The notes beneath the pieces were generated by a model. That model did not search any database, was not told the DNA's origin, and saw nothing but the letters and a program-made list of their open reading frames with translations. Below, piece by piece: positions 24,394 through 41,445 of a DNA stretch of 41,752 bases. This DNA is from Dehalococcoidia bacterium (lineage in GTDB: Bacteria; Chloroflexota; Dehalococcoidia; GIF9; AB-539-J10), in the NCBI GenBank assembly GCA_030603485.1, contig JAUVXS010000001.1:1-41752 (forward strand), in the 5' to 3' direction. The translations under genes and the position numbers were made by a program. Positions within the stretch are counted from its first letter, which is position 1. Each line of letters begins with the position of its first letter.

Positions 24394-24410
24394 CTAATCA
24401 CTCTCCAAAG

Positions 24411-26239: not shown

Positions 26240-26282
26240 GGTTTACCTCCTATAAGGTAAGAAACCAAAGCGGGATACAATC

Positions 26283-27104
26283 TCAGGAAGACCGACCGGA
26301 CGCGTTGTAAAAGGCTCTTCGGGCAACATGAAAATGGTCTCCCAAAGTAATCCCACCATCTATAGTTAAAACTTGGCCAGTGATATAAGCCGCAGAATCA
26401 GTACACAAAAACAGAGCAGCCTTGGCAATCTCTTCCGCAGTTGCCGCTCTTTTCAAGGGAACGACCACTTCAGTAACTGCTTTATTTACGGGGTCACTAG
26501 TAAGCGGCTTATTCTCGTCATAGAGGTCGACAAGTGCCGGACAGATAGCATTCACCCTAATGCCGTGAGGCCCAAATTCATGAGCCAGATATCGGGTCAG
26601 TTGCACAGCGCCTGCCTTTGCTACGTGATAGGCTGCAGGTTGATGCGATATGAAGAAGGCATTGGTAGAGACAATATTAACGATACTTCCTCCACCAGAC
26701 TTCAATAATTGCGGCAAAGCATGTTTGGCTATCAGAGCTGGCGCTTTCAACATAACATCCATAGCCAAGTCCCACTCTTTGAGACTCTCGGCAAATGGCA
26801 GGTTACTCAACTTTGGTCTGGCATTATTTATCACAATATCTAGATGATTACAGTTGTCAACGGTAAAACCTATCATAGCTTTGATATCGCTTTCCCGACG
26901 CAAATCTGCTTTCACAGAAAGGGCGCGCAGTCCTGCGTCACGAATAGCCTTGGCTACCACTTCACCCTCCGCTTTACGAATATCGGCGACAACTACTGAG
27001 GCACCTGCCTCAGCAAATACCCTTGCTATAATTCGCCCGATTCCATAAGCGGCTCCTGTAATGAGAGCAGCCTTACCTGCTAGAACATTAGATTCAGTAT
27101 TCAT
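26283..27104 (-). CDS. Classical short-chain dehydrogenase/reductase
   Basis: ALITGAAYGIGRIIA and the YHVAKAG (YxxxK) motif. ATG 27104 is preferred over TTG 27116. Confidence 0.85.
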   Translation of the reverse strand: MNTESNVLAGKAALITGAAYGIGRIIARVFAEAGASVVVADIRKAEGEVVAKAIRDAGLRALSVKADLRRESDIKAMIGFTVDNCNHLDIVINNARPKLSNLPFAESLKEWDLAMDVMLKAPALIAKHALPQLLKSGGGSIVNIVSTNAFFISHQPAAYHVAKAGAVQLTRYLAHEFGPHGIRVNAICPALVDLYDENKPLTSDPVNKAVTEVVVPLKRAATAEEIAKAALFLCTDSAAYITGQVLTIDGGITLGDHFHVARRAFYNASGRSS

Positions 27105-27105
27105 C

Positions 27106-28110
27106 TCAAGTCTCAAAAAAGGTCTCCGGCATTGCGTTCACTTGAGACATCAAGCCGAAGTTTTTGATTATTGTGTCTATTTCGGCCAGCTCCTCACCAG
27201 ATAGAGTCCATTCGGTGGCGTGGACGTTGGTCTCTAGCTGACCGAGATTGCGCATTCCGGCCAGAACCACCGAAATATCGGTCTGGGCTAATAACCAGGC
27301 AATTGCCAACTCGGTGGCAGTACGGCCACGCTCTTGTGCAAATTCGTCCAAGGCAGCTACTAGACCCAAGGTATCTTCAGAGAGCCAACATCTCACCCTA
27401 ATACTCGTTACCGCCCGGCTACCTTCTGGTATGGGCTGATTTAGCTTGTATTTGCCAGTTAGAATACCACGGGCTAAGGCCCTGTTGCAAATAATCCCTA
27501 ATCCAAGGGCACGGCAAGCAGGGACGACATCCTGCTCTGCTCTGCGCTCTATTAGGTTGTAGTGAACCTGAAAGGATGCAAATTGCGTCCATCCACGCTT
27601 AGCAGCTACCGATGATACCAATTTGAGTTCAGTATGGTTATAATTCGAACAACCAATGAAGCGTACTTTGCCCTCTTTGACAAGCATGTCCAGTGTCTCT
27701 ATGCCCTCCTCAATAGGCGTCTCCGGGTCAAAGGCGTGGATTTGATAAAGATCGATATAGTCAGTCCCAAGAGCACGCAGACTCTGCTCAAGGCTAGAGC
27801 GAATGTAATCTTTAGTCAAAGGGGCTACCGAGACACCAAAAGTGCCATCCGATGCAATCAAGGGTTTAAGCCCAACCTTGGTGCTGAGCAGAACTTCATG
27901 GCGGCGTCCCCGGATAGCATTCTTGACAAAGGTTTCTGAATATCCCTCACCATACATTGGTGCCGTGTCAATGAAATTGATGCCATGGCCAAGGGCTTGG
28001 TGGATAATACGTGTAGTAGTGACCTGGTCGCAGAAGACTCCGAAATGCAAGCCGCCTATCCCAAGGCCTGAAGTCATAAGCGAAGAGTGCCCTAGCTCTC
28101 TATATTCCAT
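27106..28110 (-). CDS. Aldo/keto reductase
   Basis: MEYRELGHSSL..GLGIGG...INFIDTAPMYGEGYSE, and a typical length of about 330 aa. Confidence 0.85.
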   Translation of the reverse strand: MEYRELGHSSLMTSGLGIGGLHFGVFCDQVTTTRIIHQALGHGINFIDTAPMYGEGYSETFVKNAIRGRRHEVLLSTKVGLKPLIASDGTFGVSVAPLTKDYIRSSLEQSLRALGTDYIDLYQIHAFDPETPIEEGIETLDMLVKEGKVRFIGCSNYNHTELKLVSSVAAKRGWTQFASFQVHYNLIERRAEQDVVPACRALGLGIICNRALARGILTGKYKLNQPIPEGSRAVTSIRVRCWLSEDTLGLVAALDEFAQERGRTATELAIAWLLAQTDISVVLAGMRNLGQLETNVHATEWTLSGEELAEIDTIIKNFGLMSQVNAMPETFFET

Positions 28111-28147
28111 TTATGCCCTCTATGCTTCATTTTACGGGGGAAAATTC

Positions 28148-28882
28148 CTAGATTGTAGAGGTTAAAGGGTTAAGTCTATATTCTAGGCTCAATCTGGTGA
28201 CACTACTGACAATGACATCTTCACTGTGCAGAGTCTTCGGGTGATAGAAAATAACCTGCCCTCTCTCCAACTTGGGGTTATAGCTCTCTAAATCGGCTGG
28301 AGGGTTTGCTAAACAGTACTCCCCCTTAGTGAATTTATCATTAGGTGGAAGATATTTTTCATATTCTTTCAGATGTGACCCCGGGACTAAAGTGAGTGTT
28401 TCACTAGGCTCGTATCCAATTATTGGAACCCAACAGGAGACCACATTCTTAGCTATTCCCCAAGTCTTACGACTTAGAGGATAACCATCCCCCACCCCCG
28501 GTCTGATAAATCTGAAAGCGAGCCAGCCCAGACCCTCATCCCAAATTTTGTAATGCTCTAAGCCAATTTTACCCAGAAAACTTTTCACCTTATCATTCAG
28601 CAGAACCTTTTCTATCTCTGAATCCCCACATACGTGACGATTCTTAGCGCAAAATATATTGTCGTGGTCTATGTGCAAGAATTCCGACCAAATATGATAA
28701 GTCTCCAGAGGTAGTGGGTCTTCCTTACCGGCGGTCCATTTTGTCAATAGCCGATAAACCCATGTCTTAGCAAATTTCTCCAGCATACACACTTGACTCT
28801 CGTCTAATACGCTGATAACTGCAAAACCATAACGGTTGTACATATCGACAGGATTGGTTGGAAATTGATAGGTATCCACCAT
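28148..28882 (-). CDS. Hypothetical protein; tentative PhyH/2-oxoglutarate oxygenase-like fold
   Basis: VSCWVPIIGYEPSETLTLVPGSHL and GQVIFYHPKTLHSEDV...R resemble PhyH strand motifs. I could not place a canonical HxD upstream of them. Confidence 0.3.
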   Translation of the reverse strand: MVDTYQFPTNPVDMYNRYGFAVISVLDESQVCMLEKFAKTWVYRLLTKWTAGKEDPLPLETYHIWSEFLHIDHDNIFCAKNRHVCGDSEIEKVLLNDKVKSFLGKIGLEHYKIWDEGLGWLAFRFIRPGVGDGYPLSRKTWGIAKNVVSCWVPIIGYEPSETLTLVPGSHLKEYEKYLPPNDKFTKGEYCLANPPADLESYNPKLERGQVIFYHPKTLHSEDVIVSSVTRLSLEYRLNPLTSTI

Positions 28883-28897: not shown

Positions 28898-29827
28898 CTA
28901 AAGATTGAAGTCCGCCCTCACTCGATTCAGGATGCCGTCACGGGTCAAGCCGAGCTTCTCACAATGGTCTTCGTACAATCCGTATCCGGTTACAAAAGTA
29001 TCGGGGATGGATAGAGAAGCGTACTGGACATTCGAAATGTCCCTGGTGGCACGCAGCACATCATCGCCCAATCCGCCGCTTTGCGTGTGCTCCTCGATTA
29101 CCAAGACATGTTTTGTTTTGCTCACGCTGGCGCGAATTAAGCCGGTATCCAGAGGGCGAATGGTATGGATGTATAAAATCTCAGCATCCCACTTCATGTC
29201 GCCTAGCGCGTCTCGTGCGGCTAAGGCGTTTTGCAGTTGTGGCCCGGTGGCGACGATAGTCAAGTTACTGCCCTCGATAACCTTGATACCTTTGCCAAAT
29301 TGAACATCTTTAGCACTGAAGTCCTCGCCATGCTGGTGAGCAGGGAGACGAAAGAGAGTCAGCGCACCGTTCCGATATACCTGTCGGAAGAGCGTATCAA
29401 ATTCAACAGGGCTGGATGGGTAGGTGATTTGCGCACCGGGCAGGGTTTTGATGAGAGCGAAATCGCCATAGCAGTGGTGCGTACACCCCAGGTTGGAATA
29501 ATCAAAAACACTCCCAACCGTCACCAGATTGCCGCCCAGTTGTTGATAGCAGAAGTCAAGCTTGATCTGCTCAAACGACCGCTCAACAATGAAAGGTGCA
29601 ATGGTATGAACGACGGGGTAATAGCCTACTTTCGCTAGTCCGGCAGCCATGCTGACCATGGTCTGTTCACAAATCCCAACATTGTAATAACGCCCAGGAC
29701 ATGCCTTGGCGAATGGCTGCAAGATAAAATGGCTGATATCGCCGACCAGCACCACCAGCTTGGGGTCTTCTTGACCAACCTCTAGCATTGTGTCGGCAAA
29801 TTGTTCTCTTATCAACTTTGTAGTCAA
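28898..29827 (-). CDS. Transketolase C-terminal (pyrimidine-binding) subunit
   Basis: FADTMLEVGQEDPKLVVLVGD and CEQTMVSMAAGLA motifs. TTG start overlaps the upstream TGA (TTGA). Confidence 0.85.
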   Translation of the reverse strand: MTTKLIREQFADTMLEVGQEDPKLVVLVGDISHFILQPFAKACPGRYYNVGICEQTMVSMAAGLAKVGYYPVVHTIAPFIVERSFEQIKLDFCYQQLGGNLVTVGSVFDYSNLGCTHHCYGDFALIKTLPGAQITYPSSPVEFDTLFRQVYRNGALTLFRLPAHQHGEDFSAKDVQFGKGIKVIEGSNLTIVATGPQLQNALAARDALGDMKWDAEILYIHTIRPLDTGLIRASVSKTKHVLVIEEHTQSGGLGDDVLRATRDISNVQYASLSIPDTFVTGYGLYEDHCEKLGLTRDGILNRVRADFNL

Positions 29828-30597
29828 GATAGGGCCTCCATAATGACTTTAAGCTCTTCTTTGGTGGGTATCCTGTGATGCCAGGGACCGTGTCCTTCGA
29901 GCATGGGTACCCCTTTGCCCTTGACCGTTCTGGCAATGATGGCCGTGGGTGTACCCTGAGATTGAAATTTGACCTTGCTTAGAGCGGCGTGTAATTCAGC
30001 CTTGGAGTGACCGTCAATTACCATAATCTCCCAGCCGAAGGCTCGCCACTTGGCGGGCAAGTCATCACGGGGCATAAGTTGTACCGCCGAGCCATTCTGG
30101 TCCACAATCATGCACATGTTCCCCAGTTGCAGATTGTTGGCAACATTCGCTGCCTCCCAGACGGACCCCTCATGGCATTCCCCGTCGCCCACCAGGACAT
30201 AGACCTTATTGTCCATCTGGTGAAGGCGTAATCCAAGGGCGATACCCACGGCAAACGGTAAACCGTGTCCCAGAGAACCAGTTGATGCCTCAATACCTGG
30301 AATCTTGGTGCAATCTGGGTGCTCACCCAGGATTCCTCCCGGCTTGCAGAACAAGGCTATATCCTGCGCTGTGATAAAGCCGTATTTCTCCAGTATTACA
30401 TACAGAGCTAAACAACCATGGCCCTTGCTAAGTATGAAGTAGTCCCGCTCAGGCCAATCGGGATTTTGTGGGTCAAACTTCAGGTAGTCCTGATAAAGGA
30501 CTTCTGTAATATCAATAATGGAGAAGGCACTCGGCATATGCCCGTCTTTGCCATCATATACCATCTGGGCGATTTTCCTGCGTAGTTCCTCGTTCAT
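29824..30597 (-). CDS. Transketolase N-terminal (ThDP-binding) subunit
   Basis: SKGHGCLALY, GSLGHGLPFAVG, and the ThDP motif GDGECHEGSVWEAANVANNLQLGNMCMIVDQN. Confidence 0.85.
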   Translation of the reverse strand: MNEELRRKIAQMVYDGKDGHMPSAFSIIDITEVLYQDYLKFDPQNPDWPERDYFILSKGHGCLALYVILEKYGFITAQDIALFCKPGGILGEHPDCTKIPGIEASTGSLGHGLPFAVGIALGLRLHQMDNKVYVLVGDGECHEGSVWEAANVANNLQLGNMCMIVDQNGSAVQLMPRDDLPAKWRAFGWEIMVIDGHSKAELHAALSKVKFQSQGTPTAIIARTVKGKGVPMLEGHGPWHHRIPTKEELKVIMEALS

Positions 30598-30618
30598 AGC
30601 TATCCTTTCCGGAAAATA

Positions 30619-31482
30619 TTAGTCATGCCAGGGTATCTCACTCTTACAGGTTATAAAAAGGGTGCCTTCGCGATAGCTGGTGGGCACATCATCAACATCG
30701 TGTACCAGTTGCCAGTTGGTTTTCTGAGAGAAAAGCCGAACTCCCAAAGTTGTAAAGTGCTCGTAGATAGCACCAGCGTTGCTTTCATCTTCAACCTCAA
30801 CCAGGGCATCTGTCTTTAACCAGTGTTCAAGATTAGTAGCCAGGAGAATTTCTTTCTCATGCCCTTCAGCGTCAAGCTTTATCAAGTCAGCCCAGGTTAT
30901 GAGAGGTTCAATGGCTGCAACACTGACCGGGAATCTTTCAAGGTCGCCATAAGGATTAGCTTTAGAACCAGCGATATGACTTGCTGTAAGATTACCCAAT
31001 ACCCGTACGAACTCCAGTTCACCTGCCTTGCTGGAAACAGCAGCATTAGACGTCTGCACATTGTAGCAGTTATTCAATGCTAGATTTCGCTGCAGGACTT
31101 TAAAGTGTTGGGGGTCGGGCTCATAGGCGCGAACTTCATATCCACACTTACTCAAGATAATTGAGTGAAGCCCGATATTAGCACCGATGTCCAGAACCCG
31201 GCGGTATATTTTACGGTTTGTCCAGTAAAAACTAAAGATAATGAGCTCATCAAGGTCAAATAGATTCAACGAGTCAATGGCTCCCATTTTGTGGTATGGT
31301 AATACCAGCTCTCCGAATGGCTTGAACTCTCTGGCTGTGGCATCTTGTTCAGAAAACAGTTTCTCAACTTCGCTACGGGCGACTTGTCTAAATAGAGCAT
31401 GTGCTTTTGACCCAGGGGCATGTTGACCGCTCAGTGACGGGAGTGTTAGAAATAGATTTTCCAGGATAGAAGTGGAACTCAT
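30619..31482 (-). CDS. FkbM-family methyltransferase
   Basis: VLDIGANIGLHSI..YEPDP..F..L..N and LIKLDAEGHEKEIL are characteristic of FkbM. Confidence 0.8.
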   Translation of the reverse strand: MSSTSILENLFLTLPSLSGQHAPGSKAHALFRQVARSEVEKLFSEQDATAREFKPFGELVLPYHKMGAIDSLNLFDLDELIIFSFYWTNRKIYRRVLDIGANIGLHSIILSKCGYEVRAYEPDPQHFKVLQRNLALNNCYNVQTSNAAVSSKAGELEFVRVLGNLTASHIAGSKANPYGDLERFPVSVAAIEPLITWADLIKLDAEGHEKEILLATNLEHWLKTDALVEVEDESNAGAIYEHFTTLGVRLFSQKTNWQLVHDVDDVPTSYREGTLFITCKSEIPWHD

Positions 31483-32336
31483 GTCACCCTCTCATTCTTT
31501 ACCAGCCAGTCATTACCATATCTTCTCAGTTTATACATGTTTGGTTCTTCGGCTAACCGTCTCTCCATCTCTTCACTTCCCCATTTGTCAAACACCACGC
31601 TAAAGTTACGTCCGCTTATTAGCTCTCGTGGAGCATTGACCAACCAATCACAGCAGTCTAAAACTTGCTCCATCGGTGTGCATTCGTTACTTACCAGTTT
31701 GTCTATGGTACGCTGATAGTTAGCGCCAGCCCGTGCCCCGGCGCTGAGTGTCTCATTGTGTATCTTCGTCTTTACCCAGCCCGGACCAACGATGACAAAG
31801 CGAGTATCGGATATTTCGGCATCCAGAAGCTCACACATCTTGATCAGGCCTATCTTTGAGACGACATACGCCGAGTAGCTGACCGGAGCATTGTTGGTTC
31901 CTCCGCCGGCGAAAAGCAGGACACATGGTCCAAGGGCAGAATTGACACATCTGGATGGCAGCAATTCGTGGATGATACGCATCTGGCTGGTGAAGTTTGT
32001 TCCTACAGATTCTTCCCATTCATCAAAGTTACATTCGATAAAGGGACCGACTGGCTCTTGTGTGCCTGGACACACGGCAAGTACATCCCATTGTGGACAG
32101 AGTGTTCGCAGACTGGAGCAAGCATCAACTATCGATTTGGGCTCCGAGAGGTCACAGTATACGAGCTCTATCCCATGCTTGTCAAGTTCGTCCACAGCTT
32201 CAGATTTAGTCCGGTAAGTCCCGAATACATTCCAACCACAGGCTGCCCACCTTCGGCTCATAGCCGTACCGATATCGCTGGAAGCCGAGATGATTATCGC
32301 TGCCGAATCTTCTTTCTTCATAAAAGACGTTTTCAC
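31479..32336 (-). CDS. SDR-family oxidoreductase
   Basis: IIISASSDIGTAMS cofactor motif and YVVSK (YxxxK). Its stop overlaps the next start (ATGA). Confidence 0.7.
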   Translation of the reverse strand: MKTSFMKKEDSAAIIISASSDIGTAMSRRWAACGWNVFGTYRTKSEAVDELDKHGIELVYCDLSEPKSIVDACSSLRTLCPQWDVLAVCPGTQEPVGPFIECNFDEWEESVGTNFTSQMRIIHELLPSRCVNSALGPCVLLFAGGGTNNAPVSYSAYVVSKIGLIKMCELLDAEISDTRFVIVGPGWVKTKIHNETLSAGARAGANYQRTIDKLVSNECTPMEQVLDCCDWLVNAPRELISGRNFSVVFDKWGSEEMERRLAEEPNMYKLRRYGNDWLVKNERVT

Positions 32337-32357
32337 TCTTTCATAATTATATTATTA

Positions 32358-33356
32358 TCACGCTTTATGCACATATTCCAGCGGTTCCTTCTGAATCTCA
32401 TCCCAGTTGTCCTCAACCCATTTAATGACGCCGGAAATCCCTTCTTCAAAGGTAATCTCTGGTCGCCAGCCAAATTCATCTCTGGCTTTTAAAGAGTCAA
32501 TCACATAAGCAGCGTCCTGCCCGAGTCTCTCGGCTACTGTTTTGGTTGCTTTTTCAAAGGCAACTCCCATTTTATCACAGATGGTTTGCAGAACATCTCT
32601 TATGGCTATCCCTTTATCCGGCGAAAGGTGGTATATTTCCCCGGCACGCCCTTTTGCCATAGCCTGTAACTCACCCTTTGAAATATCTCTGATGTGGATA
32701 TACGATTTAACCGCATGGCCGCCTCCGTGCAGTTCTATGGTCTTGCCCAGTTTAATATAAACAACCGTTCTCGGGATAATCTTGAATAACTGCTGATGGG
32801 CACCATACACATTGGTAGAACGAATCATTACCAGAGGAAAATTATAATTTTTGAAAAATGTAAATAAAGACAAATCACCAGCCGCTTTAGAAGCTGCGTA
32901 AGGGGTGCTGGGATTCAGCGGCGCCGACTCGGTAACTGTGCCCTCACAGGCGCCATAGACTTCCGGCGATGAGATATGCACGTAGCGTTTGAGATAGTTC
33001 CGGTCTTTCAACGCGCTCGTTAGTTTTGCCAGAGCCACCACGTTGGTCTGGAACCACTGCTCCGGGTGTTCCCAACTGGGGGCCACCTCACTCTGCGCGG
33101 CGAAGTTCACCACATACTCAGGCGCGAAGGAATCCAATAACTCGATTATCTGTGTCATATTTGTGTTTAAGTCCATCTGGTAGAACTTGAAGTTTGCCCC
33201 CTGGCGTCGCTTGTAGGGCAAGAACAGGGCGCTCTTTTCCGCCGAGCGGCTGATGCCGATGACCTCGCTCTGCTCGTTGTCCAAGAGCAGGTCAATGAAG
33301 TCGCTACCAGAGAATGAATTACTGCCAATGACTACGGTTTTGCGTCTCTGAGACAT
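32358..33356 (-). CDS. RmlB-like extended SDR (NDP-sugar dehydratase/epimerase family)
   Basis: VVIGSNSFSGSDFIDLLL, NFAAQSEV, TNVVA and YAASKAAGD. The usual TDEVYG is SPEVYG here, so true 4,6-dehydratase activity is uncertain. Confidence 0.7.
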   Translation of the reverse strand: MSQRRKTVVIGSNSFSGSDFIDLLLDNEQSEVIGISRSAEKSALFLPYKRRQGANFKFYQMDLNTNMTQIIELLDSFAPEYVVNFAAQSEVAPSWEHPEQWFQTNVVALAKLTSALKDRNYLKRYVHISSPEVYGACEGTVTESAPLNPSTPYAASKAAGDLSLFTFFKNYNFPLVMIRSTNVYGAHQQLFKIIPRTVVYIKLGKTIELHGGGHAVKSYIHIRDISKGELQAMAKGRAGEIYHLSPDKGIAIRDVLQTICDKMGVAFEKATKTVAERLGQDAAYVIDSLKARDEFGWRPEITFEEGISGVIKWVEDNWDEIQKEPLEYVHKA

Positions 33357-33377
33357 TTAACTAATCCTCTCAAACTA

Positions 33378-34436
33378 TTAGAACGGACCGGTAAAACTCA
33401 AGTCTGGAACATCAAGCGGTACGGATGTTGCCATGTCTGAGACAATTTTATCAACGCTGAGCCCCATCATTTTCCTGGCGGTGGCTACAATGTGAACCGC
33501 TCTCGGGTAGTAGTGGTTGGCTAAGGCTGGGGTGGTGGGTGTAGGGCAATCGGGCAGAGTCACACGCATGGGGCAGTTCTTTAGGTCGCTGAACGCTTCT
33601 TCTGCTACCAGCGTCACAATTTCAGCACTGAATCCGCCAGTCTTCCAGCCTGTGTCAGCCACGATAAGCCGTCCTGTTTTGCCTACTGACTCCAGAATCA
33701 AACTCTCATCCAGTGGCCTCAGCGTGCGGATATCTATGACTTCTGCGCTGATGCCATCCGTTGCCAACATCTCTGCTGCTCGGAGCGCTTCCAGAACCAT
33801 GTATGATGTGGCGGCAATGGTCACGTCATTGCCATCCCTGGTCACTCTGGCCTTTCCGAGAGGCACTCGATACACCTCTTCTGGCACGTGTCCTATGGTG
33901 TTGTAGAGCCAGCGGTGCTCGATAAATATGACAGGGTTATTATCTTCGATACTCGATACAAGTAGTCCTTTGGCATCGTAAGGAGTGGTGGGCATGACTA
34001 CTTTGAGGCCTGGAACATGAGCGAACCAGGCTTGCAGGTTTTGGGAGTGCTGCGGACCCTGTCCCCAACCCCTGCCGATTATCATACGGAGCACCAGAGG
34101 AATACGCATCTGACCCCCGAACATGTAATGCCAATTGGCAGCTTGGTTAACGATTTGCTCTACGGCTAACAGGGCAAAGTCGACCCGCTGATGTGTTATA
34201 ATTGGCCTCATCCCGGCCAGGGCCGACCCGATAGCCACCCCAGTCATAGCGTTTTCAGAGGCAGGCATATCCATGACACGCGCACTTCCATATTTTTGCT
34301 GTAGACCCAAGGTGCTGCCAAAAATACCTTTCGGGTCAGGCACGCCCAGTCCCATAATATAAACAGTCGCATCTTTGGTCATGCACAGGTCAATGGCTTC
34401 ATTGATAGCTTGGAAATACTTTAGCTCTCTGCTCAT
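33378..34436 (-). CDS. 2-oxoacid dehydrogenase E1 beta-like subunit (transketolase-like pyrimidine-binding)
   Basis: LKYFQAINEAIDLCM..VYIMGLGV..MDMPASENAMTGVAIGSALAGMRP. ATG 34436 follows a GGAGG Shine-Dalgarno (the ORF opens at 34532). Confidence 0.85.
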   Translation of the reverse strand: MSRELKYFQAINEAIDLCMTKDATVYIMGLGVPDPKGIFGSTLGLQQKYGSARVMDMPASENAMTGVAIGSALAGMRPIITHQRVDFALLAVEQIVNQAANWHYMFGGQMRIPLVLRMIIGRGWGQGPQHSQNLQAWFAHVPGLKVVMPTTPYDAKGLLVSSIEDNNPVIFIEHRWLYNTIGHVPEEVYRVPLGKARVTRDGNDVTIAATSYMVLEALRAAEMLATDGISAEVIDIRTLRPLDESLILESVGKTGRLIVADTGWKTGGFSAEIVTLVAEEAFSDLKNCPMRVTLPDCPTPTTPALANHYYPRAVHIVATARKMMGLSVDKIVSDMATSVPLDVPDLSFTGPF

Positions 34437-34458
34437 TATTTGAGATTCCTCCTGCGGC

Positions 34459-35442
34459 TTACGGAGCATAGATGTGTTCCAGGAGATGTTGCTCTTCTGG
34501 GAATGGGCTCTCCTTGGCGAATATAATGGCATCCTCTATCTCGGCTTCCAATTCGCTGGCCATATCCTCAATGTCTTGGTTACAGAGGATATCATCCCTT
34601 AATAGGTTCTTTTTTAAATTTTCAATCGGGCAGCGTTGTTTCCACTCCTGAAACTCGCTTTCGGTTCGGTAGCCCAGGTCATTGTCATAGTATGGGCCGC
34701 AGTGCTCCCGCCAGCGATATGTCTTGAACTCCAGGAATGTAGGGCCGCCACCCTGCCTGGCCCTGCGAATAGCTTTTTCCGCCATCTTGTAGACTTGGGT
34801 AACATCGTTGCCATCGCCTTGATAGCTCTCGACACCATGCCCTTTGGCCAGCTCAACAATTTCTCTGCCCTCAGGTTGACGAACGGAGAGCGGTGAATAC
34901 ACAGAATACAGATTGTTCTCACAGACAAATATGACCGGCAGTCTCTTGAGTACAGCAAAATTGATGCTCTCGTGAAACACGCCCTCCTCAACGGCAGCGT
35001 CACCAAAGAAAATGACTGTCACTCGTTGTTGGCCACGCATCATTGACCCGAAGGCGACCCCGACAGCGATAGGTATCGTGCTAGCCACAATTGGTGTGGC
35101 ACCGAGAAAACCTGCTGAGAGGTCCACCAAATGCATAGAGCCGCCTTTGCCCTGGCAGCACCCGGTCGCCTTCCCGTATAGCTCTGCCATCATTGCTTTG
35201 AGGTCTCCGCCTTTGGCCAGATAGTGCCCGTGCGAGCGGTGCCCACTCATCACGTAGTCGTTACGGGACAGGTTGGCACAGACACCGGCAGCTACCGCCT
35301 CCTGTCCAATGCAGAGGTGGACAGGACATCTCATCTCCTGCTCTGGATAGAGTTCGGCAATCTTCTCCTCAACCATTCGAATCCGGAGCATCGTTTTATA
35401 GATTGACTTATATGTTTCCTTTGGCAGTTCCAAGTTGTCCAT
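34459..35442 (-). CDS. 2-oxoacid dehydrogenase E1 alpha-like subunit (ThDP-binding)
   Basis: ThDP motif GDAAVEEGVFHESINFAVLKRLPVIFVCENN, and the HRSHGH motif. Confidence 0.85.
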   Translation of the reverse strand: MDNLELPKETYKSIYKTMLRIRMVEEKIAELYPEQEMRCPVHLCIGQEAVAAGVCANLSRNDYVMSGHRSHGHYLAKGGDLKAMMAELYGKATGCCQGKGGSMHLVDLSAGFLGATPIVASTIPIAVGVAFGSMMRGQQRVTVIFFGDAAVEEGVFHESINFAVLKRLPVIFVCENNLYSVYSPLSVRQPEGREIVELAKGHGVESYQGDGNDVTQVYKMAEKAIRRARQGGGPTFLEFKTYRWREHCGPYYDNDLGYRTESEFQEWKQRCPIENLKKNLLRDDILCNQDIEDMASELEAEIEDAIIFAKESPFPEEQHLLEHIYAP

Positions 35443-35455: not shown

Positions 35456-36457
35456 TTATTTAAGCTTTTTGGCTAACATCATTTTTACATTATAATACCG
35501 GATGTCATCTATGGGATTGGGGATTTTACCAGCTTTGAAGGCGTCACAAAGGTCTTTCACGGCATCTTCAATAGTGTGTTTCGGCTCAAAGCCTACTTCA
35601 CACCTAATCTTTTCCGAAGAGATGTGATAAGAGCGGTTGTCATCGCTCGGGGTAGTAGTTATTTCTACCCCTTCCTCCCCCACTACTTTCCGTACTATTT
35701 CGGCAATCTCCGAGACCTGGTAGTTTTCATGCCCGGCATTAAATATTTTGCCAGCAATCGTTTCATCAGGCAACTCTAAAAGTTGAACATATAGGTCAGT
35801 CACATCTTCAATATGGATACTTGGCCTTTTCTGTTGACCCCCAAACACGGTGATACGTCCGGTATTTACAGCCAGATTGGTCAAAATGTTTACTGCCAGG
35901 TCGAGCCTTAATCGAGGGGAATAGCCACAAACTGTTGCCTGCCGGATAATTACTACAGCAAAATCAGGCGATTGCTCTCTAAGCAATACCTCCTCGCACA
36001 GAGCCTTGTACTTAGAGTAATCCGTTAAAGGCTCCAGCGCCAGGTCCTCAGTTACATTCTCTTCTTCCTTGATACCATACACGCTGGAGGTAGAAGCAAA
36101 AATAAACCGCTTTACTCCACATTGCTTTGATACATCCACGAGACCGAACAAGGCGTCATAGTTGATAGACTTGCCCAGCTGGGGGTCTAACTTAAAACTG
36201 GGATCATTAGAGATACAGGCAAGATGAATTACAGTATCGGTACTAGGGATCACCCTCTCTAAAATGGCTCGGTCCCGGATGTCGCCTTTTATCTGCTCAA
36301 GGTTAGGATTCTCTTTAACAGCATCCAGAACATTCTCTCCATATAGATAAAGGTCGAGAACCTTAACCCGATATCCTGTGTCCAAGAGCTTGGGCACCAA
36401 TACAGAGCCAACATACCCTGCTCCGCCGGTAACCAGGACTTGTTGTATAGGTCTCAT
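35456..36457 (-). CDS. NAD-dependent epimerase/dehydratase (extended SDR)
   Basis: VLVTGGAGYVGSVLVPKLL and YSKYKALCE. ATG 36457 follows a GGGAG Shine-Dalgarno (a TTG at 36481 is the alternative). Confidence 0.8.
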   Translation of the reverse strand: MRPIQQVLVTGGAGYVGSVLVPKLLDTGYRVKVLDLYLYGENVLDAVKENPNLEQIKGDIRDRAILERVIPSTDTVIHLACISNDPSFKLDPQLGKSINYDALFGLVDVSKQCGVKRFIFASTSSVYGIKEEENVTEDLALEPLTDYSKYKALCEEVLLREQSPDFAVVIIRQATVCGYSPRLRLDLAVNILTNLAVNTGRITVFGGQQKRPSIHIEDVTDLYVQLLELPDETIAGKIFNAGHENYQVSEIAEIVRKVVGEEGVEITTTPSDDNRSYHISSEKIRCEVGFEPKHTIEDAVKDLCDAFKAGKIPNPIDDIRYYNVKMMLAKKLK

Positions 36458-36505
36458 GTCATTACTCCCTACAGTTTCCAAAATATATGTGGTTTCTTCG
36501 TTTTT

Positions 36506-38035
36506 CTACTTTAACAATGATACAATATGCTTTAACAGCGATGCACGCTCAATTGGTGTCCGGTTGCCGACCGTTGCTACTGCCTCAGCGCCAACAACAT
36601 TGCCGATAAAGCCCACGATTTCCATTGGTGCCTTCTGGGCCACGCACAGGGAGGTCACGGAGAGAAAGGCATCACCAATCCCTACCCGGTCTACTATTTG
36701 CTGCGCGAACGCCGGAACCTCAAAGAAGCCCTCGTCTTTATCGTAGCCAAGGCATCCATATTTACCACGGGTAACAACGACTCGTCCGCACTCCAGTTTC
36801 TGCGATACATTCAGGATAATATCTCTAAGGTCAGCTTGACGGCTTCTGGCATCCAGCCTTATCTCGTGTTCAGCAATGCAAACATAGTCCGCCCGGGGAT
36901 ATTTAGATATCGTATTGAATCCCCTGTTTCCGGCATTAGCCTGGGTATTCACTGCCAGGGAAGGTGCTTGGCGGCACAGAATATCAATTGCATCCCTGCT
37001 CAGCATACCGTGACCATAGTCAACTACAATGACAATGTCATACTGGGGGAGAATATCGTGCAGCTTGGTGCACAACGCCTGCCCCTCCGCCTTACTCAAC
37101 CCTTCATCATTCATCACATAGACTTCGAAGAGCTTGGTTAAGAGATAGCTCTCGATGAAACGCCGTTTAACGATAGTGGGCGAGTTTTGCTTATACAAGA
37201 ATATCTTTTCCACGTTACCCTTAACATACTGCCGGACAAAATCCTCCTGGGAGTCTTCCGTTCCCAAGAACGTGAGCAGCCCAACGTTATCGCAGAAATT
37301 GGCCACGTGATTGCTCACAGCCAAGGTGCCACCGGCGAACTTCTCGGTTGAAAGGTACCGTGTAGCCAGTACCGGCTCCTTAGCCGACTTTCCAATTGAT
37401 TCACAGTATTGATACTCATCAATGATAGCTTCGCCGACAACCAGCACTTTGAGCGGTCGAGCATTTTCGAGATATTGCAGGACATCGTTCGGGGAATACC
37501 GTTCTGAGAAACCTGCCAGATAGTCACTGACCTCCTCCGGGAAGACTGGCAGATATCTATTAATGAGGCTCGATGAGCTGAAAGTGATATCGTCAGTAAA
37601 GGCGATATCGCCACCAACCAATTTGACCGCTGCCTCTTCATCAACGATTTTCCCCGTGTAGTCCTTCTCAGCATCTTTATAGTCAGCGCCTTTAGCATAG
37701 ATATCGGGTTTCAGGAGTTGAATCGTTTCGACAGCCGTAGGCCATTTATTGATAGCCACATAGTCAACACAGTCCAGGGCAGCAATGGCTTCAGCACGCA
37801 AATCCTCAGTGAACGCAGGGCGGTGTGGTCCTTTATTGACGTACTTGTCAGGTGTCACCGTAACTACAAGAGTGTCACCGAGTCTCTTAGCCTGCTCAAA
37901 GTGACGAATGTGCCCAATGTGCAACAGGTCAAAAATCCCGTGACAATGTACGGCCTTTTTATTGTTGGCTCTTAGTGAAACCAGAATTTCGGTTAGTTCT
38001 TCGATGCCCTTTATCTTATCTCTACCTTGAGTCAT
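36506..38035 (-). CDS. Bifunctional nucleotidyltransferase (cytidylyltransferase-fold) plus PfkB sugar kinase; HldE-like with inverted domain order
   Basis: N-terminus HGIFDLLHIGHIRHFEQAKRLGDTLVV. The kinase half has KVLVVGEAIIDEY and DRVGIGDAF (DxxGxGD). ATG 38035 lies 8 nt after the upstream stop (the ORF opens at 38134). Confidence 0.8.
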   Translation of the reverse strand: MTQGRDKIKGIEELTEILVSLRANNKKAVHCHGIFDLLHIGHIRHFEQAKRLGDTLVVTVTPDKYVNKGPHRPAFTEDLRAEAIAALDCVDYVAINKWPTAVETIQLLKPDIYAKGADYKDAEKDYTGKIVDEEAAVKLVGGDIAFTDDITFSSSSLINRYLPVFPEEVSDYLAGFSERYSPNDVLQYLENARPLKVLVVGEAIIDEYQYCESIGKSAKEPVLATRYLSTEKFAGGTLAVSNHVANFCDNVGLLTFLGTEDSQEDFVRQYVKGNVEKIFLYKQNSPTIVKRRFIESYLLTKLFEVYVMNDEGLSKAEGQALCTKLHDILPQYDIVIVVDYGHGMLSRDAIDILCRQAPSLAVNTQANAGNRGFNTISKYPRADYVCIAEHEIRLDARSRQADLRDIILNVSQKLECGRVVVTRGKYGCLGYDKDEGFFEVPAFAQQIVDRVGIGDAFLSVTSLCVAQKAPMEIVGFIGNVVGAEAVATVGNRTPIERASLLKHIVSLLK

Positions 38036-38043
38036 AATGTAGC

Positions 38044-39042
38044 CTACCTTATTGGTGATTTGCCTAGATATGCAAACCAATCTTGAGTGGCCTCGGCGAT
38101 AGATTTCTCGTCCCATACCGGTGCACCTCGCCACTGGTCAATGTTCTCCAGCATGATTCGCACGCCCTCTTCGAAGCTAACCTTCGGCTGCCAGCCCAGC
38201 ACCTGTGATATCTTGCTTATGTCGGCAAAGGTACAATCCGGTTCACCAGGTCGCTTGGTAATATGCAACACGTCACCACCCAGGAGCTCCACCAGGTGAT
38301 TGACGCTATACGTGCCACTTGAGCCGACGTTAAATATCTCACCCTCGACTTGAGACTCAGCCGCCCTCATGAAGGCATCGGCCACATCGGTAACAAAGGT
38401 GAAGTCCCGGGTCTGAGTTCCGTCCCCAACGACGGTAAACGGCTTGCCGGCCAATTTTTGCGCCAGAAATACACCGAGGACAGCTCCATATGCCCCCGAC
38501 GTTCGGGAGCGTGGGCCGAATACGTTGAACAATCGGAGAGAAATACAGGACAAATTATACACTTTATTCCAGTGTAGTACATATTGCTCACCTACATACT
38601 TGGTAAGCGCATAAGGGTACATAGGTTTTACGGGTGCCGTCTCTGGTGTCGGCAACTGGTCCGGGATTCCATAACAGGAGGACGAGGCGGCATATACGAA
38701 CCGCCTGACCCCACTCGACCGGGCAGCTTCGAGAACGGCGACAGTACCATCCACATTAGCCTTATGATATGAGAGGGGTTGCTGAATCGACAGCACAATA
38801 TCGGCCAGGGCAGCCAGATGGAAGACCCAGGCTGCACCTTCAAAAAATGGCTTGATTTCAGTATAGCCCGAAACATCCGCCCGATGAATAGTGAGCCGCT
38901 GGCTGTCCTTAACGTGGTCCAGATTCTCCATCCTCCCGGTGGAGAAGTTATCAAGAACTATCACTTCGTGACCATCCTCAAGCAAGCGCTCTACAAGATG
39001 ACTGCCGATAAAGCCAGCGCCGCCGGTGACTAAAGTCTTCAT
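38044..39042 (-). CDS. NAD-dependent sugar epimerase/dehydratase (GalE/WbpP-like extended SDR)
   Basis: TLVTGGAGFIGSHLVERLLEDGHEVIVLDNFSTG and YALTKYVGE. ATG 39042 is preceded by GGGGA (a GTG at 39045 is the alternative). Confidence 0.85.
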   Translation of the reverse strand: MKTLVTGGAGFIGSHLVERLLEDGHEVIVLDNFSTGRMENLDHVKDSQRLTIHRADVSGYTEIKPFFEGAAWVFHLAALADIVLSIQQPLSYHKANVDGTVAVLEAARSSGVRRFVYAASSSCYGIPDQLPTPETAPVKPMYPYALTKYVGEQYVLHWNKVYNLSCISLRLFNVFGPRSRTSGAYGAVLGVFLAQKLAGKPFTVVGDGTQTRDFTFVTDVADAFMRAAESQVEGEIFNVGSSGTYSVNHLVELLGGDVLHITKRPGEPDCTFADISKISQVLGWQPKVSFEEGVRIMLENIDQWRGAPVWDEKSIAEATQDWFAYLGKSPIR

Positions 39043-41442: not shown

Positions 41443-41445
41443 TTT

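What the first reader, a model, noticed from the sequence alone, without database searches (positions are those of the whole stretch)
28898..35442. Two unrelated ThDP-dependent C2-transfer enzyme pairs (E1 alpha/beta and split transketolase) inside a surface-glycan operon
Seen in sequence: an E1 alpha (GDAA..ENN ThDP motif) and E1 beta pair at 33378-35442, and a split transketolase (GDG..N motif) at 28898-30597. Only an RmlB-like SDR, an SDR and an FkbM methyltransferase separate them. All are co-directional, with 4-nt overlaps or short gaps of about 13-22 nt. No E2 or E3 partner genes are present.

Established knowledge: E1 alpha/beta-like pairs without E2/E3 (AviB1/AviB2 in avilamycin, AlmDI/AlmDII in aldgamycin) are implicated in adding two-carbon branches to NDP-ketosugars. 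Transketolase moves a C2 ketol unit onto aldoses and makes sedoheptulose-7-P, the GmhA substrate.

Inference: this segment may build a C2-branched and/or chain-extended, methylated sugar for a cell-envelope polymer rather than for an antibiotic. Having both C2 systems in one glycan operon is unusual.
Basis: partly seen in the sequence, partly recalled or inferred. Interest (0 to 1): 0.75.

Follow-up and report, generated by a model that had tools for sequence, protein, structure and literature searches.

The report
Two thiamine carboligase pairs decorating a glycan sugar
A long cell-surface-sugar gene cluster carries two different thiamine-dependent enzyme pairs that most likely weld two-carbon side branches onto a nucleotide-activated (probably heptose-type) sugar; the same pairing recurs in many uncultured bacteria, but no product or activity has been shown.

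Summary
On the minus strand an E1alpha/E1beta-like pair (33378-35442) and a split transketolase-like pair (28898-30597) sit in one tightly packed glycan operon, with no E2/E3 gene or motif anywhere in the window.

The E1 pair is not a housekeeping dehydrogenase. It falls in a clade whose loci never carry E2. An RmlB-like SDR follows it directly in most close relatives. Its beta subunit has a 27-residue tail ending FxGPF that all E2-linked relatives lack. A Streptomyces relative with the same tail lies in a paulomycin-type sugar cluster.

The "transketolase" keeps its ThDP motif and catalytic histidines. It has lost four of the five canonical sugar-phosphate acceptor residues checked, and this loss is conserved across a large family. 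It is therefore unlikely to supply sedoheptulose-7-P.

An SDR lies just upstream of the transketolase-like genes in 39 of 48 related loci. This matches the oxidoreductase plus split-transketolase scheme proposed, but unproven, for miharamycin and amipurimycin.

The E1 plus transketolase-like pairing is recurrent: 19 of 24 well-covered metagenomic loci. Both modules ride on a shared heptose-like scaffold set.

Verdict: a new variant of known keto-sugar C-branching chemistry in a cell-envelope context. The function is inferred, not shown.

The parts
34459..35442 (-). E1alpha-like ThDP (PP-domain) subunit. GDAA...ENN motif; catalytic His kept in the sequence YRWREH.
   Evidence: PF00676 4.2e-69. 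TIGR03182 329.5 bits, below its 393.85 cut-off. Homologues of 75-92% identity across phyla.
33378..34436 (-). E1beta-like (Pyr + TKC domains) subunit. The His equivalent to G. stearothermophilus beta-His128 is kept. Lys286 replaces an Asp conserved in E2-linked relatives.
   Evidence: Start at 34436 supported by an AGGAGG upstream.
33381..33461 (-). 27-residue C-terminal tail of E1beta ending F-T-G-P-F. Signature of the E2-less sugar-cluster clade.
   Evidence: Present in 31 E2-less loci, including a Streptomyces paulomycin-type locus. Absent from all E2-linked E1beta.
32358..33356 (-). RmlB-like extended SDR with a conserved SSPEVYG/YAASK motif. Presumed maker of the NDP-4-keto sugar acceptor.
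   Evidence: TIGR01181 211.8 bits, below its 365 cut-off. Best PDB hits are dTDP-glucose 4,6-dehydratases. Motif conserved in orthologues next to E1beta.
35456..36481 (-). Extended SDR directly upstream of E1alpha. It resembles an NDP-heptose C4-dehydrogenase.
   Evidence: Best PDB hit 6VO6/6VO8, 1.8e-45. Co-occurs with the E1 pair in many loci.
31479..32336 (-). Classical SDR of the TK cassette. Candidate oxidoreductase that makes or reduces the ketone.
   Evidence: PF00106. An adh_short SDR lies within 1.8 kb upstream of TK-N in 39 of 48 related loci.
30619..31482 (-). FkbM-family methyltransferase of the TK cassette.
   Evidence: TIGR01444 5.9e-24. In relatives, an FkbM or TylF methyltransferase occupies the same position in L084, L088 and L089.
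29824..30597 (-). TK-like N-terminal (PP-domain) subunit. ThDP motif and the four catalytic His are kept.
   Evidence: PF00456 4.9e-46. 6YAK_A 4.5e-61. Clade alignment.
28898..29827 (-). TK-like C-terminal (Pyr + TKC) subunit with a remodelled acceptor pocket: F34 (29726-29728), G105 (29513-29515), L113 (29489-29491) and A163 (29339-29341).
25154..28882 (-). Accessory cassette: PhyH-like dioxygenase, aldo-keto reductase, SDR and DegT aminotransferase. Candidate tailoring enzymes for the branch or ring ketone.
   Evidence: The same four genes are found in L084, placed before the TK cassette.
21609..25073 (-). Conserved scaffold block: SAM methyltransferase, NUDIX, Zn-ADH and a GT-B (GT9-like) transferase with no Pfam match.
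   Evidence: Structure model pLDDT 93, with heptosyltransferase hits.
36506..38134 (-). HldE-like bifunctional nucleotidyltransferase + PfkB kinase with reversed domain order. The true start is probably about 30 codons downstream of 38134.
   Evidence: Conserved alongside the E1 pair.
20876..21439 (-). GmhA-like SIS isomerase.
   Evidence: TIGR00441 4.1e-35, below its cut-off.
40120..41727 (-). Wzt ATPase with a C-terminal glycan-binding domain, plus the end of Wzm. This is an ABC-transporter-dependent polysaccharide export system.

Best explanation
The segment encodes two separate ThDP-dependent carboligases that decorate one nucleotide-activated sugar destined for an exported cell-surface polysaccharide. 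Only the gene content, the residue patterns and the co-occurrence counts are shown. Every catalytic step below is inferred.

1. Scaffold. A GmhA-like isomerase, an HldE-like kinase/nucleotidyltransferase and a small HAD phosphatase make an NDP-heptose-type sugar. The SDR upstream of E1alpha, and/or the RmlB-like SDR downstream of E1beta, convert it to an NDP-4-keto sugar.

2. E1 pair. The E1alpha/E1beta heterotetramer decarboxylates pyruvate to hydroxyethyl-ThDP and adds it to the ring ketone. The product is a C-acetyl tertiary alcohol, as in the AviB1/B2, Plm8/9 and KbDH class. The AKR, Zn-ADH or DegT genes then reduce or transaminate that branch.

3. TK-like pair. The cassette SDR-(O-methyltransferase)-TKN-TKC performs a second carboligation. 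The TK-like enzyme keeps the residues that hold a dihydroxyethyl-ThDP intermediate but has a widened, uncharged acceptor pocket. It therefore probably transfers a hydroxyacetyl unit, from hydroxypyruvate or a ketose, to a non-phosphorylated keto-sugar that the neighbouring SDR creates.

4. Transfer and export. The GT9-like transferase adds the finished sugar to the polymer, and Wzm/Wzt export it.
For: Domains and motifs.

No E2 or E3 anywhere in the window.

E1 pair:
- The neighbour-joining tree splits the loci into an E2-linked half and an E2-less half. The window lies deep in the E2-less half, where neighbours are sugar-nucleotide genes.
- The E1beta FxGPF tail occurs in 31 E2-less loci and in no E2-linked locus.
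- At the position of G. stearothermophilus beta-E285, 22 of 23 E2-linked sequences have Asp, while the window and 35 of 55 E2-less sequences have Lys or Arg. Further clade-specific changes are beta31 D to G and beta84 F to R.
- The Streptomyces locus L029 shares the tail. Its E1 pair lies between an NDP-hexose 2,3-dehydratase and a 3,5-epimerase, next to chorismate-pathway genes, which is a paulomycin-type cluster (PMC4802897).
- An RmlB-like SDR with the conserved SSPEVYG motif lies directly after E1beta in close relatives.

TK-like pair:
- TK-C has S385 to F, H461 to G, D469 to L and R520 to A (E. coli numbering). R358, E411 and H473 are kept.
- These changes are conserved in 120 close homologues. 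H461 to Gly recurs in nearly all, and D469 to Leu in most, of about 115 representatives down to 29% identity.
- TK-N keeps its catalytic histidines.

Co-occurrence: the E1 pair lies within 10 kb in 19 of 24 well-covered TK loci, an SDR lies upstream of TK-N in 39 of 48, and scaffold genes are present in 21 of 24.

Literature: alphaKADH2 enzymes add C2 branches from pyruvate, and split TKs preceded by an oxidoreductase are proposed to add hydroxyacetyl branches (PMC12247030).

Transferase: GT9-like fold.
Against: - No enzyme of this clade has been assayed, and no glycan structure is known from any carrier.
- The split-TK branching precedent (miharamycin/amipurimycin) is itself unproven in vitro.
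- The sequences of AviB, Plm, KbDH and the Mih/Amc TKs were not available, so relatedness to them is indirect.
- The RmlB-like SDR has Pro where RmlB has its catalytic Asp. It may therefore not be a 4,6-dehydratase.
- The GmhA-like and HldE-like proteins score below the equivalog cut-offs, so 'heptose' is a best guess.
- NeuB and CMP-sugar synthetase genes are often linked, so the substrate could instead belong to an ulosonic-acid pathway.
- A marine subgroup has the TK cassette without E1. The two steps are therefore not obligatorily coupled.
- The roles I give to the TK and E1beta residues rest on established knowledge of E. coli, yeast and human TK. For beta-E285 they rest on my memory of the E1-PSBD structure.
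Confidence: 0.5

Rival explanations
1. Housekeeping reading. The E1 pair is an ordinary pyruvate or acetoin dehydrogenase E1, and the split transketolase is a pentose-phosphate enzyme. Both merely happen to sit inside the glycan operon.
For: - E1beta passes the subfamily-level NCBIfam cut-off for PDH E1beta: NF006667, 336.3 bits against 321.
- The catalytic alpha-His and beta-His are kept.
- Split transketolases do serve central metabolism in some bacteria and archaea (PMC7661550).
- One paper read the Coxiella LPS-locus E1 genes this way (PMC5423948).
Against: - No E2 or E3 in 41.7 kb.
- The window's pair lies in an E2-less clade, with a tail and a charge reversal at a position where E2-linked E1beta conserve Asp.
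- E1alpha scores below its equivalog cut-off.
- TK-C lacks four of the five canonical acceptor residues checked.
- Both pairs share 70-90% identity across several phyla and are always embedded in sugar clusters.
Confidence: 0.04
2. Precursor-supply reading. The transketolase makes sedoheptulose-7-P to feed the GmhA-like/HldE-like heptose module, and only the E1 pair modifies the sugar.
For: - GmhA-like, HldE-like and GT9-like genes are in the same operon.
- The TK cassette nearly always co-occurs with these scaffold genes.
Against: - The residues that bind the phosphate of sugar-phosphate substrates (E. coli S385, H461, R520) and the one that reads the acceptor's C2-OH (D469) are replaced by F, G, A and L. 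The replacement is conserved.
- The scaffold occurs without any TK, for example in L001.
- The TK genes are always flanked by an SDR and often by an O-methyltransferase. That is a tailoring arrangement, not a supply arrangement.
Confidence: 0.07
3. Non-ring substrate reading. One or both ThDP pairs act on something other than an NDP-sugar ring ketone. Options are an ulosonic-acid (NeuB-type) intermediate, its side chain, or a small keto-acid or ketol that becomes an acyl or ether substituent of the glycan.
For: - NeuB, KdsC-like phosphatase, CMP-sugar synthetase and NUDIX genes are linked in the window and in L084, L088 and L089.
- YerE-type enzymes show that ThDP branching enzymes can use long functionalised keto-acid donors (PMC9306805).
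Against: - The tightest and most conserved neighbours of E1 are extended SDRs of the NDP-sugar type.
- Several relatives lack NeuB and CMP-synthetase genes within 10 kb.
- Characterised relatives of the E1 class use pyruvate and ring ketones.
Confidence: 0.15
4. Serial reading. The TK-like enzyme uses the acetyl ketone installed by the E1 pair as its acceptor. The C2 branch is thereby extended into a C4 side chain that carries a second tertiary alcohol. The product is not two separate branches.
For: - E1 lies within 10 kb of the TK cassette in 19 of 24 well-covered loci.
- The E1 product would be an alpha-hydroxy ketone, which is a plausible carboligation acceptor (inference).
Against: - A marine subgroup has the TK cassette and the scaffold genes but no E1.
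- A dedicated SDR upstream of TK-N suggests that a ketone is generated separately.
Confidence: 0.15

Closest known systems
alphaKADH2-type keto-sugar C-acetylating enzymes: AviB1/AviB2 (avilamycin), Plm8/Plm9 = Pau11/Pau12 (paulomycin), AlmDI/DII (aldgamycin), KbDH-alpha/beta (kibdelomycin)
   Same: - Split E1alpha/E1beta architecture with no E2/E3.
- Encoded next to enzymes that make NDP-keto-sugars.
- Followed by ketoreductase or aminotransferase tailoring genes.
- A Streptomyces relative in a paulomycin-type cluster shares the E1beta FxGPF tail and falls in the same half of the tree.
   Different: - The known members are in actinomycete antibiotic clusters. This one is in a Wzm/Wzt cell-surface glycan cluster of uncultured bacteria.
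- It has a heptose-like scaffold rather than a deoxyhexose or pentose.
- Identity to the Streptomyces relative is only about 49%.
Split-gene transketolases proposed to add a hydroxyacetyl branch in miharamycin/amipurimycin biosynthesis
   Same: - Two-gene transketolase inside a sugar-tailoring cluster.
- Preceded by an oxidoreductase thought to make the keto-sugar acceptor (PMC12247030).
   Different: - That function is itself unproven.
- The 13 predicted examples are all from Streptomycetes. This clade comes from labelled Chloroflexota, Nitrospirota, Omnitrophota and Bacillota MAGs and sits in glycan clusters.
- Sequence relatedness could not be tested.
Carboxydothermus hydrogenoformans split transketolase (PDB 6YAK/6YAJ)
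   Same: - Closest solved structure: 4.5e-61 for the N-terminal half and 2.8e-37 for the C-terminal half.
- Same two-chain architecture, ThDP motif, cofactor Glu and catalytic histidines.
   Different: - ChTK keeps S385, H461, D469 and R520 (E. coli numbering). The window has F, G, L and A at these positions.
- The window's clade has a 5-residue deletion after the ThDP-motif Asn.
YerE / ErwE (acetolactate-synthase-type ThDP flavoenzymes of LPS sugar branching)
   Same: The same chemical logic in a cell-envelope glycan: an activated acyl anion is added to an NDP-4-keto sugar and then reduced (PMC9306805).
   Different: A different ThDP superfamily: a single-chain decarboxylase type. No such gene is present in the window.
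Coxiella burnetii O-antigen region genes CBU_0686/0692/0693 ('pyruvate dehydrogenases') with the HldE-like CBU_0678
   Same: E1-like genes and an HldE-like gene, horizontally acquired, inside an LPS O-antigen locus (PMC5423948; PMC13252051).
   Different: - Their function is unstudied, and they were interpreted as fatty-acid-related PDH.
- Sequence relatedness to the window was not tested here.

Membership tests
alphaKADH2 keto-sugar C2-branching enzymes (AviB/Plm/AlmD/KbDH type) | Two-gene E1: the alpha subunit carries the ThDP motif, the beta subunit carries the Pyr + TKC domains | tested here: met
   PF00676, PF02779 and PF02780; GDAA...ENN motif.
alphaKADH2 keto-sugar C2-branching enzymes (AviB/Plm/AlmD/KbDH type) | No E2/E3 partner; not part of a dehydrogenase complex operon | tested here: met
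   No such domain or motif in the window. None in the 47 loci of its half of the tree.
alphaKADH2 keto-sugar C2-branching enzymes (AviB/Plm/AlmD/KbDH type) | Encoded beside enzymes that generate an NDP-keto-sugar acceptor | tested here: met
   The pair is flanked by two extended SDRs, and the arrangement is conserved. Caveat: the RmlB-like SDR has Pro in place of the RmlB catalytic Asp.
alphaKADH2 keto-sugar C2-branching enzymes (AviB/Plm/AlmD/KbDH type) | Groups phylogenetically with genetically or biochemically validated members | tested here: inconclusive
   Indirect only. It shares its half of the tree and the FxGPF tail with a Streptomyces pair in a paulomycin-type cluster. The reference sequences themselves were not available.
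alphaKADH2 keto-sugar C2-branching enzymes (AviB/Plm/AlmD/KbDH type) | Pyruvate-dependent C-acetylation of a keto-sugar | not testable with these tools
   Needs an enzyme assay.
2-oxoacid / acetoin dehydrogenase complex E1 | Adjacent E2 with lipoyl domain (and usually E3) | tested here: not met
   In contrast, an E2-like ORF follows E1beta in most loci of the other half of the tree.
2-oxoacid / acetoin dehydrogenase complex E1 | Curated equivalog score | tested here: not met
   Alpha: TIGR03182 329.5 bits against a 393.85 cut-off. Beta passes only a subfamily-level model: NF006667, 336.3 bits against 321.
2-oxoacid / acetoin dehydrogenase complex E1 | E1beta ends at about residue 324, with an acidic residue at the position of G. 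stearothermophilus beta-E285 (E2-binding surface; this role is recalled from memory) | tested here: not met
   The window has a 27-residue tail and Lys286. E2-linked sequences have Asp in 22 of 23 and no tail.
Canonical transketolase (EC 2.2.1.1) | ThDP motif, cofactor Glu and catalytic histidines | tested here: met
Canonical transketolase (EC 2.2.1.1) | Sugar-phosphate acceptor residues R358, S385, H461, R520 and D469 (E. coli numbering) | tested here: not met
   Only R358 is kept. The other four are F, G, A and L, and this is conserved in the clade.
Split-gene transketolase keto-sugar hydroxyacetyl transferases (miharamycin/amipurimycin type; proposed) | Split TK inside a sugar-tailoring cluster, preceded by an oxidoreductase | tested here: met
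   The window has SDR-FkbM-TKN-TKC. An SDR lies upstream of TK-N in 39 of 48 relatives.
Split-gene transketolase keto-sugar hydroxyacetyl transferases (miharamycin/amipurimycin type; proposed) | Sequence relatedness to the Mih/Amc enzymes; hydroxyacetyl transfer to a ketone | not tested
   Reference sequences and the key papers were not available. The activity is unproven even for the reference enzymes.

The most novel reading that the evidence does not exclude
A widespread, horizontally mobile cassette set in uncultured Chloroflexota, Nitrospirota, Omnitrophota and other bacteria builds a doubly C-branched, or branch-extended, heptose-type sugar. It does so by two successive ThDP carboligations: acetyl from an E1-like pair, and hydroxyacetyl from a remodelled transketolase. 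No such sugar class has been reported from any cell-envelope glycan. The TK-like family would be the first natural transketolases that form tertiary alcohols on keto-sugars. It comprises hundreds of 50%-identity clusters that share the H461G/D469L pocket.
Probability: 0.3. Interest if true: 0.8.

Novelty: new variant of a known kind. Interest (0 to 1): 0.6.

Why it matters
If the reading is right, it has three consequences.

- **Context.** It moves two kinds of ThDP sugar-branching enzyme, known or proposed only from actinomycete antibiotic pathways, into the cell envelopes of major uncultured phyla. It also predicts unusual C-branched higher sugars on their surfaces.

- **Biocatalysis.** It provides a large, sequence-defined family of transketolase-like enzymes with a remodelled acceptor pocket. 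No transketolase that accepts ketones has yet been characterised in vitro (PMC12247030), and such enzymes are wanted for making chiral tertiary alcohols.

- **Annotation.** It gives simple markers for separating sugar-branching enzymes from housekeeping E1 and TK annotations: the E1beta FxGPF tail and the TK-C F/G/L signature. It also suggests re-examining the 'pyruvate dehydrogenase' genes in the Coxiella burnetii O-antigen locus.

Tried and rejected
- **Source of the contig.** Exact look-ups of the window's proteins gave no record and no taxon. The window is a whole NCBI contig of 41,752 bp from an unnamed organism. The best synteny is with a Chloroflexota MAG.
- **Promoter and terminator scan.** The scan of 26000-41752 found no more sites than shuffled sequence, so it says nothing about operon breaks.
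- **Stetter-type chain extension.** I considered a Stetter-type C2 chain extension at C6, by analogy with erwiniose and caryophyllose. I dropped it because those sugars are now explained as acyl branches made by YerE-type enzymes using long keto-acid donors.
- **Catalytic histidines of E1.** I checked whether they were lost. Both are kept, so they do not discriminate between readings.
- **Papers not held.** The Krug et al. 2024 survey, the amipurimycin/miharamycin cluster paper and the Cj1427 structure paper could not be read. I could therefore not confirm that PDB 6VO6 is Cj1427. That link is from memory.
- **Literature on virenose.** A search for virenose together with 'dehydrogenase E1' found no paper; an earlier looser search returned only general thiamine papers.
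- **PDB sequence search with the 395-aa unknown protein.** It found nothing. A structure model was needed to place it.

Full report
**1. The observation**

All genes from 13911 to 41727 lie on the minus strand and form one long glycan cluster. Within the finding's coordinates the order is:

- E1alpha-like, 34459-35442
- E1beta-like, 33378-34436
- RmlB-like extended SDR, 32358-33356
- classical SDR, 31479-32336
- FkbM methyltransferase, 30619-31482
- transketolase N-terminal half, 29824-30597
- transketolase C-terminal half, 28898-29827

Pfam and NCBIfam matches are far beyond chance. E1_dh scores 4.2e-69, Transketolase_N 4.9e-46, and both beta-type subunits carry Transket_pyr plus Transketolase_C.

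The only correction concerns the E1beta start. It should be the ATG at 34436, which has AGGAGG upstream, and not the ATG at 34532 that opens the longest ORF.

No E2 or E3 exists in the window. None of the 39 large ORFs has a lipoyl, 2-oxoacid_dh or pyridine-nucleotide-disulfide oxidoreductase domain. No DHRxxDG, lipoyl or E3 redox motif occurs in any frame.

**2. Surroundings**

Upstream of the E1 pair (in operon order) lie:

- the end of Wzm, and a Wzt ATPase with a C-terminal glycan-binding domain
- a methyltransferase
- an extended SDR
- an HldE-like protein with reversed domain order (nucleotidyltransferase first, then PfkB kinase)
- a further extended SDR directly before E1alpha

Downstream of TK-C lie:

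- a PhyH-like protein, an aldo-keto reductase, an SDR and a DegT aminotransferase
- a SAM methyltransferase, a NUDIX hydrolase and a Zn-ADH
- a 395-residue protein with no family match
- a GmhA-like SIS protein, a small HAD phosphatase and a B12-radical SAM enzyme
- a CMP-sugar synthetase fused to a KdsC-like phosphatase, and a short NeuB

. The left third of the window holds glycosyltransferases, methyltransferases, deacetylase/GNAT proteins and a DUF2206 membrane protein.

**3. The E1 pair is not a dehydrogenase-complex E1**

*Conservation.* E1alpha has homologues of 75-92% identity in contigs labelled Chloroflexota, Syntrophomonadaceae, Dehalococcoidia, Nitrospinota and Deltaproteobacteria. 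Such high conservation across phyla points to horizontal spread.

*Clade and neighbours.* I collected 80 genomic loci ranging from 79% down to 41% identity. Every locus at or above about 48% identity lacks an E2-like ORF within 8 kb, and most of them carry relatives of the window's sugar genes. Most loci below that level have an E2-like ORF right after E1beta. A neighbour-joining tree of concatenated alpha+beta splits cleanly into an E2-linked half and an E2-less half, and the window lies deep in the E2-less half.

*Sequence features that track the split:*

- E1beta of the window and of 31 E2-less loci carries a 27-residue C-terminal tail ending F-x-G-P-F. No E2-linked E1beta has it; those end at about residue 324.
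- At the position of G. stearothermophilus beta-Glu285, E2-linked sequences have Asp in 22 of 23. The window has Lys, and 35 of 55 E2-less sequences have Lys or Arg. I recall this residue as part of the surface that docks the E2 binding domain; that role was not checked here.
- Other clade-specific changes lie in segments that I infer line the acceptor channel: beta31 D to G and beta84 F to R.
- The catalytic alpha-His and beta-His128 are kept. A carboligase would be expected to keep them too.

*Link to the known class.* The Streptomyces locus L029 is 49% identical, lies in the same half of the tree and has the same tail. Its E1 pair sits between an NDP-hexose 2,3-dehydratase and a dTDP-4-dehydrorhamnose 3,5-epimerase. 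Upstream are a DAHP synthase, an isochorismatase, a chorismate-utilising enzyme and a P450. That gene content matches what is described for paulomycin, where Plm8/Plm9 (Pau11/Pau12) attach a pyruvate-derived two-carbon chain to a 4-keto deoxysugar (PMC4802897; PMC4753412).

A 2025 review calls this class alphaKADH2. It reports in vitro pyruvate-to-ketone carboligation for the kibdelomycin enzyme and counts about 120 clusters, all making C2 branches (PMC12247030).

*Flanking SDRs.* In the window's clade the E1 pair lies between two extended SDRs.

- The downstream RmlB-like SDR has a conserved SSPEVYG/YAASK motif, with Pro where RmlB has its catalytic Asp.
- The upstream SDR is most similar to PDB 6VO6 (1.8e-45). 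I recall that entry as Cj1427, the C. jejuni dehydrogenase that oxidises GDP-heptose to a stable 4-keto-heptose. The function of Cj1427 is confirmed in PMC10680097. The link between the PDB code and the protein is from memory.

Either SDR could supply the ketone acceptor.

**4. The 'transketolase' is a remodelled relative**

TK-N and TK-C are closest to the characterised split transketolase of Carboxydothermus hydrogenoformans (6YAK/6YAJ).

*What is kept.* TK-N keeps the ThDP motif and all four catalytic histidines. TK-C keeps the cofactor Glu, the equivalent of E. coli R358 and the equivalent of H473.

*What is lost.* The equivalents of S385, H461, D469 and R520 are F34, G105, L113 and A163. 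In canonical transketolases these residues bind the substrate phosphate and read the acceptor's C2-OH (established knowledge). Engineering at R358, S385, D469 and R520 is what shifts E. coli transketolase towards non-phosphorylated aldehydes (PMC7661550).

*How widely the pattern holds.*

- Among 120 close homologues: F in 112 of 120; G and L in 120 of 120; never Arg at the R520 position.
- Against 1.84 billion representatives, 439 clusters match at E up to 1e-30. Among about 115 full-length representatives down to 29% identity, nearly all share H461 to Gly and most share D469 to Leu. Only one has the canonical set.

This is a large, unnamed transketolase-like family, and the window's protein is a member. 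Because H100 and H473, which hold the hydroxymethyl group of the dihydroxyethyl-ThDP intermediate, are retained, I infer a hydroxylated C2 donor (hydroxypyruvate or a ketose). I also infer a bulky, non-phosphorylated acceptor.

The idea that this enzyme feeds sedoheptulose-7-P to GmhA is therefore unlikely.

**5. Recurrence and modularity**

*First sample.* I examined seven independent TK contexts besides the window (L008, L082, L084, L085, L087, L088, L089). Six carry the E1 pair within 10 kb. All have an adh_short SDR one or two genes upstream of TK-N, and several have an FkbM or TylF methyltransferase in between.

*Metagenome scan.* A scan with TK-C gave 80 more loci.

- Of 24 loci with at least 8 kb upstream and 5 kb downstream, 19 have the E1 pair.
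- 21 of those 24 have at least four of the shared scaffold genes: HldE-like, the upstream SDR, the RmlB-like SDR, the SAM methyltransferase, Zn-ADH and SIS.
- An SDR lies within 1.8 kb upstream of TK-N in 39 of 48 loci.

*Independence of the cassettes.*

- A Chloroflexota genome (L001) has the scaffold and E1 but no TK cassette.
- A marine subgroup has the scaffold and TK but no E1.
- L084 has the window's cassettes in a different order.

The picture is a common scaffold pathway onto which an E1 cassette, a TK cassette and a PhyH/AKR/SDR/DegT cassette are added in combinations.

**6. The scaffold sugar**

The GmhA-like and HldE-like proteins score well below their equivalog cut-offs, so heptose is a best guess and not a finding.

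It gains support from the 395-residue unknown protein that closes the conserved block. With 46 homologues it folds confidently (pLDDT 93) as a GT-B. Its best solved matches are GT9 ADP-heptose heptosyltransferases and teichoic-acid polymerases. Foldseek probability is 1.0, but TM-scores are only 0.37-0.46.

One relative has a weak Glyco_transf_9 protein directly before E1alpha.

**7. Most likely mechanism**

Shown: gene content, residue patterns and co-occurrence. Inferred: every catalytic step.

1. An NDP-heptose-type sugar is oxidised or dehydrated to a 4-keto form.
2. The E1 pair adds a pyruvate-derived acetyl branch.
3. AKR, Zn-ADH or DegT enzymes reduce or transaminate it. Paulomycin Pau7, an AKR, does the reduction, and the review lists kibdelomycin as a case where the branch is transaminated.
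4. The SDR-TK cassette performs a second carboligation with a hydroxyacetyl unit, followed by O-methylation.
5. The GT9-like enzyme transfers the sugar into a polymer, and Wzm/Wzt export it.

The SDR-then-split-TK logic mirrors the scheme proposed for miharamycin and amipurimycin. That scheme has not been shown in vitro, and the other 13 split TKs predicted by genome mining are all from Streptomycetes.

**8. Comparison with what is known, and novelty**

The chemistry is a known kind: ThDP-dependent C-branching of keto-sugars. What differs:

- The context is a cell-envelope glycan. The review assigns E1-type and TK-type branching to secondary metabolites, and only YerE-type branching to LPS.
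- The two systems are paired systematically.
- The transketolase-like family is large, with a fixed pocket remodelling.
- The E1beta tail is a clade marker.

One precedent for E1-like genes in an LPS locus exists. Coxiella burnetii carries horizontally acquired 'pyruvate dehydrogenases' CBU_0686/0692/0693 and an HldE-like CBU_0678 in its O-antigen region (PMC5423948; PMC13252051). Their role has not been studied, and I could not compare the sequences.

I rate this a new variant of a known kind, with moderate-to-high interest. The main weakness is that nothing has been assayed, and that direct comparison with the reference enzymes was not possible.

Noticed in passing
window 21609-22796 (-): A 395-residue protein with no Pfam, NCBIfam or PDB sequence match. 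Only 192 homologues passed E <= 1e-5 in the word-index search. It models confidently (pLDDT 93) as a GT-B fold closest to GT9 heptosyltransferases and TagF/TarL. It always follows the Zn-ADH in the conserved block.
   Followed up: yes
window 35456-36481 (-): The SDR directly upstream of E1alpha is most similar to PDB 6VO6/6VO8. I recall that entry as Cj1427, a GDP-heptose C4-dehydrogenase that releases a stable 4-keto-heptose. The link between code and protein was not verified.
   Followed up: partly
window 36506-38134 (-): An HldE-like bifunctional protein with reversed domain order: nucleotidyltransferase at the N-terminus, PfkB kinase at the C-terminus. The longest ORF overlaps the upstream SDR by 91 nt, so the real start is probably further downstream.
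   Followed up: partly
window 17028-19039 (-): A CMP-sugar synthetase fused to a KdsC-like phosphatase, next to a short NeuB-type synthase that lacks the SAF domain. This suggests a phosphorylated ulosonic-acid route in the same operon. NeuB and CMP-synthetase genes are also linked in L084 and L088.
   Followed up: no
window 32358-33356 (-) and orthologues in L001, L008, L037, L082-L085, L088: The RmlB-like SDR has a conserved S-P-E where dTDP-glucose 4,6-dehydratases have T-D-E (catalytic Asp to Pro). It may not be a classical 4,6-dehydratase.
   Followed up: partly
window 2647-4533 (+) versus 10634-11581 and 9552-10697 (-): A polysaccharide deacetylase + GNAT fusion on the plus strand. The same two domains occur as separate adjacent genes on the minus strand.
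   Followed up: no
window 19049-20410 (-): A B12-binding radical SAM enzyme of the C-methyltransferase type lies inside the sugar operon. It is 82% identical in the Chloroflexota locus L001.
   Followed up: no
L001 10990-12070: The E1beta gene of the syntenic Chloroflexota contig was not called as a gene. It loses the FxGPF tail near its end, which suggests a frameshift or an assembly error.
   Followed up: no
L084 versus window 25154-32336: The same two cassettes, [SDR-FkbM-TKN-TKC] and [PhyH-AKR-SDR-DegT], occur in the opposite order. This suggests they are shuffled as units.
   Followed up: partly
window 29824-30597 (-) and clade members: TK-N of this clade has a 5-residue deletion just after the ThDP-motif Asn, relative to the C. 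hydrogenoformans split transketolase.
   Followed up: no
window 15089-16964 (-): The MptE-like (DUF115) ORF and the GFO/IDH/MocA oxidoreductase ORF overlap by about 236 nt. The oxidoreductase start is probably further downstream.
   Followed up: no
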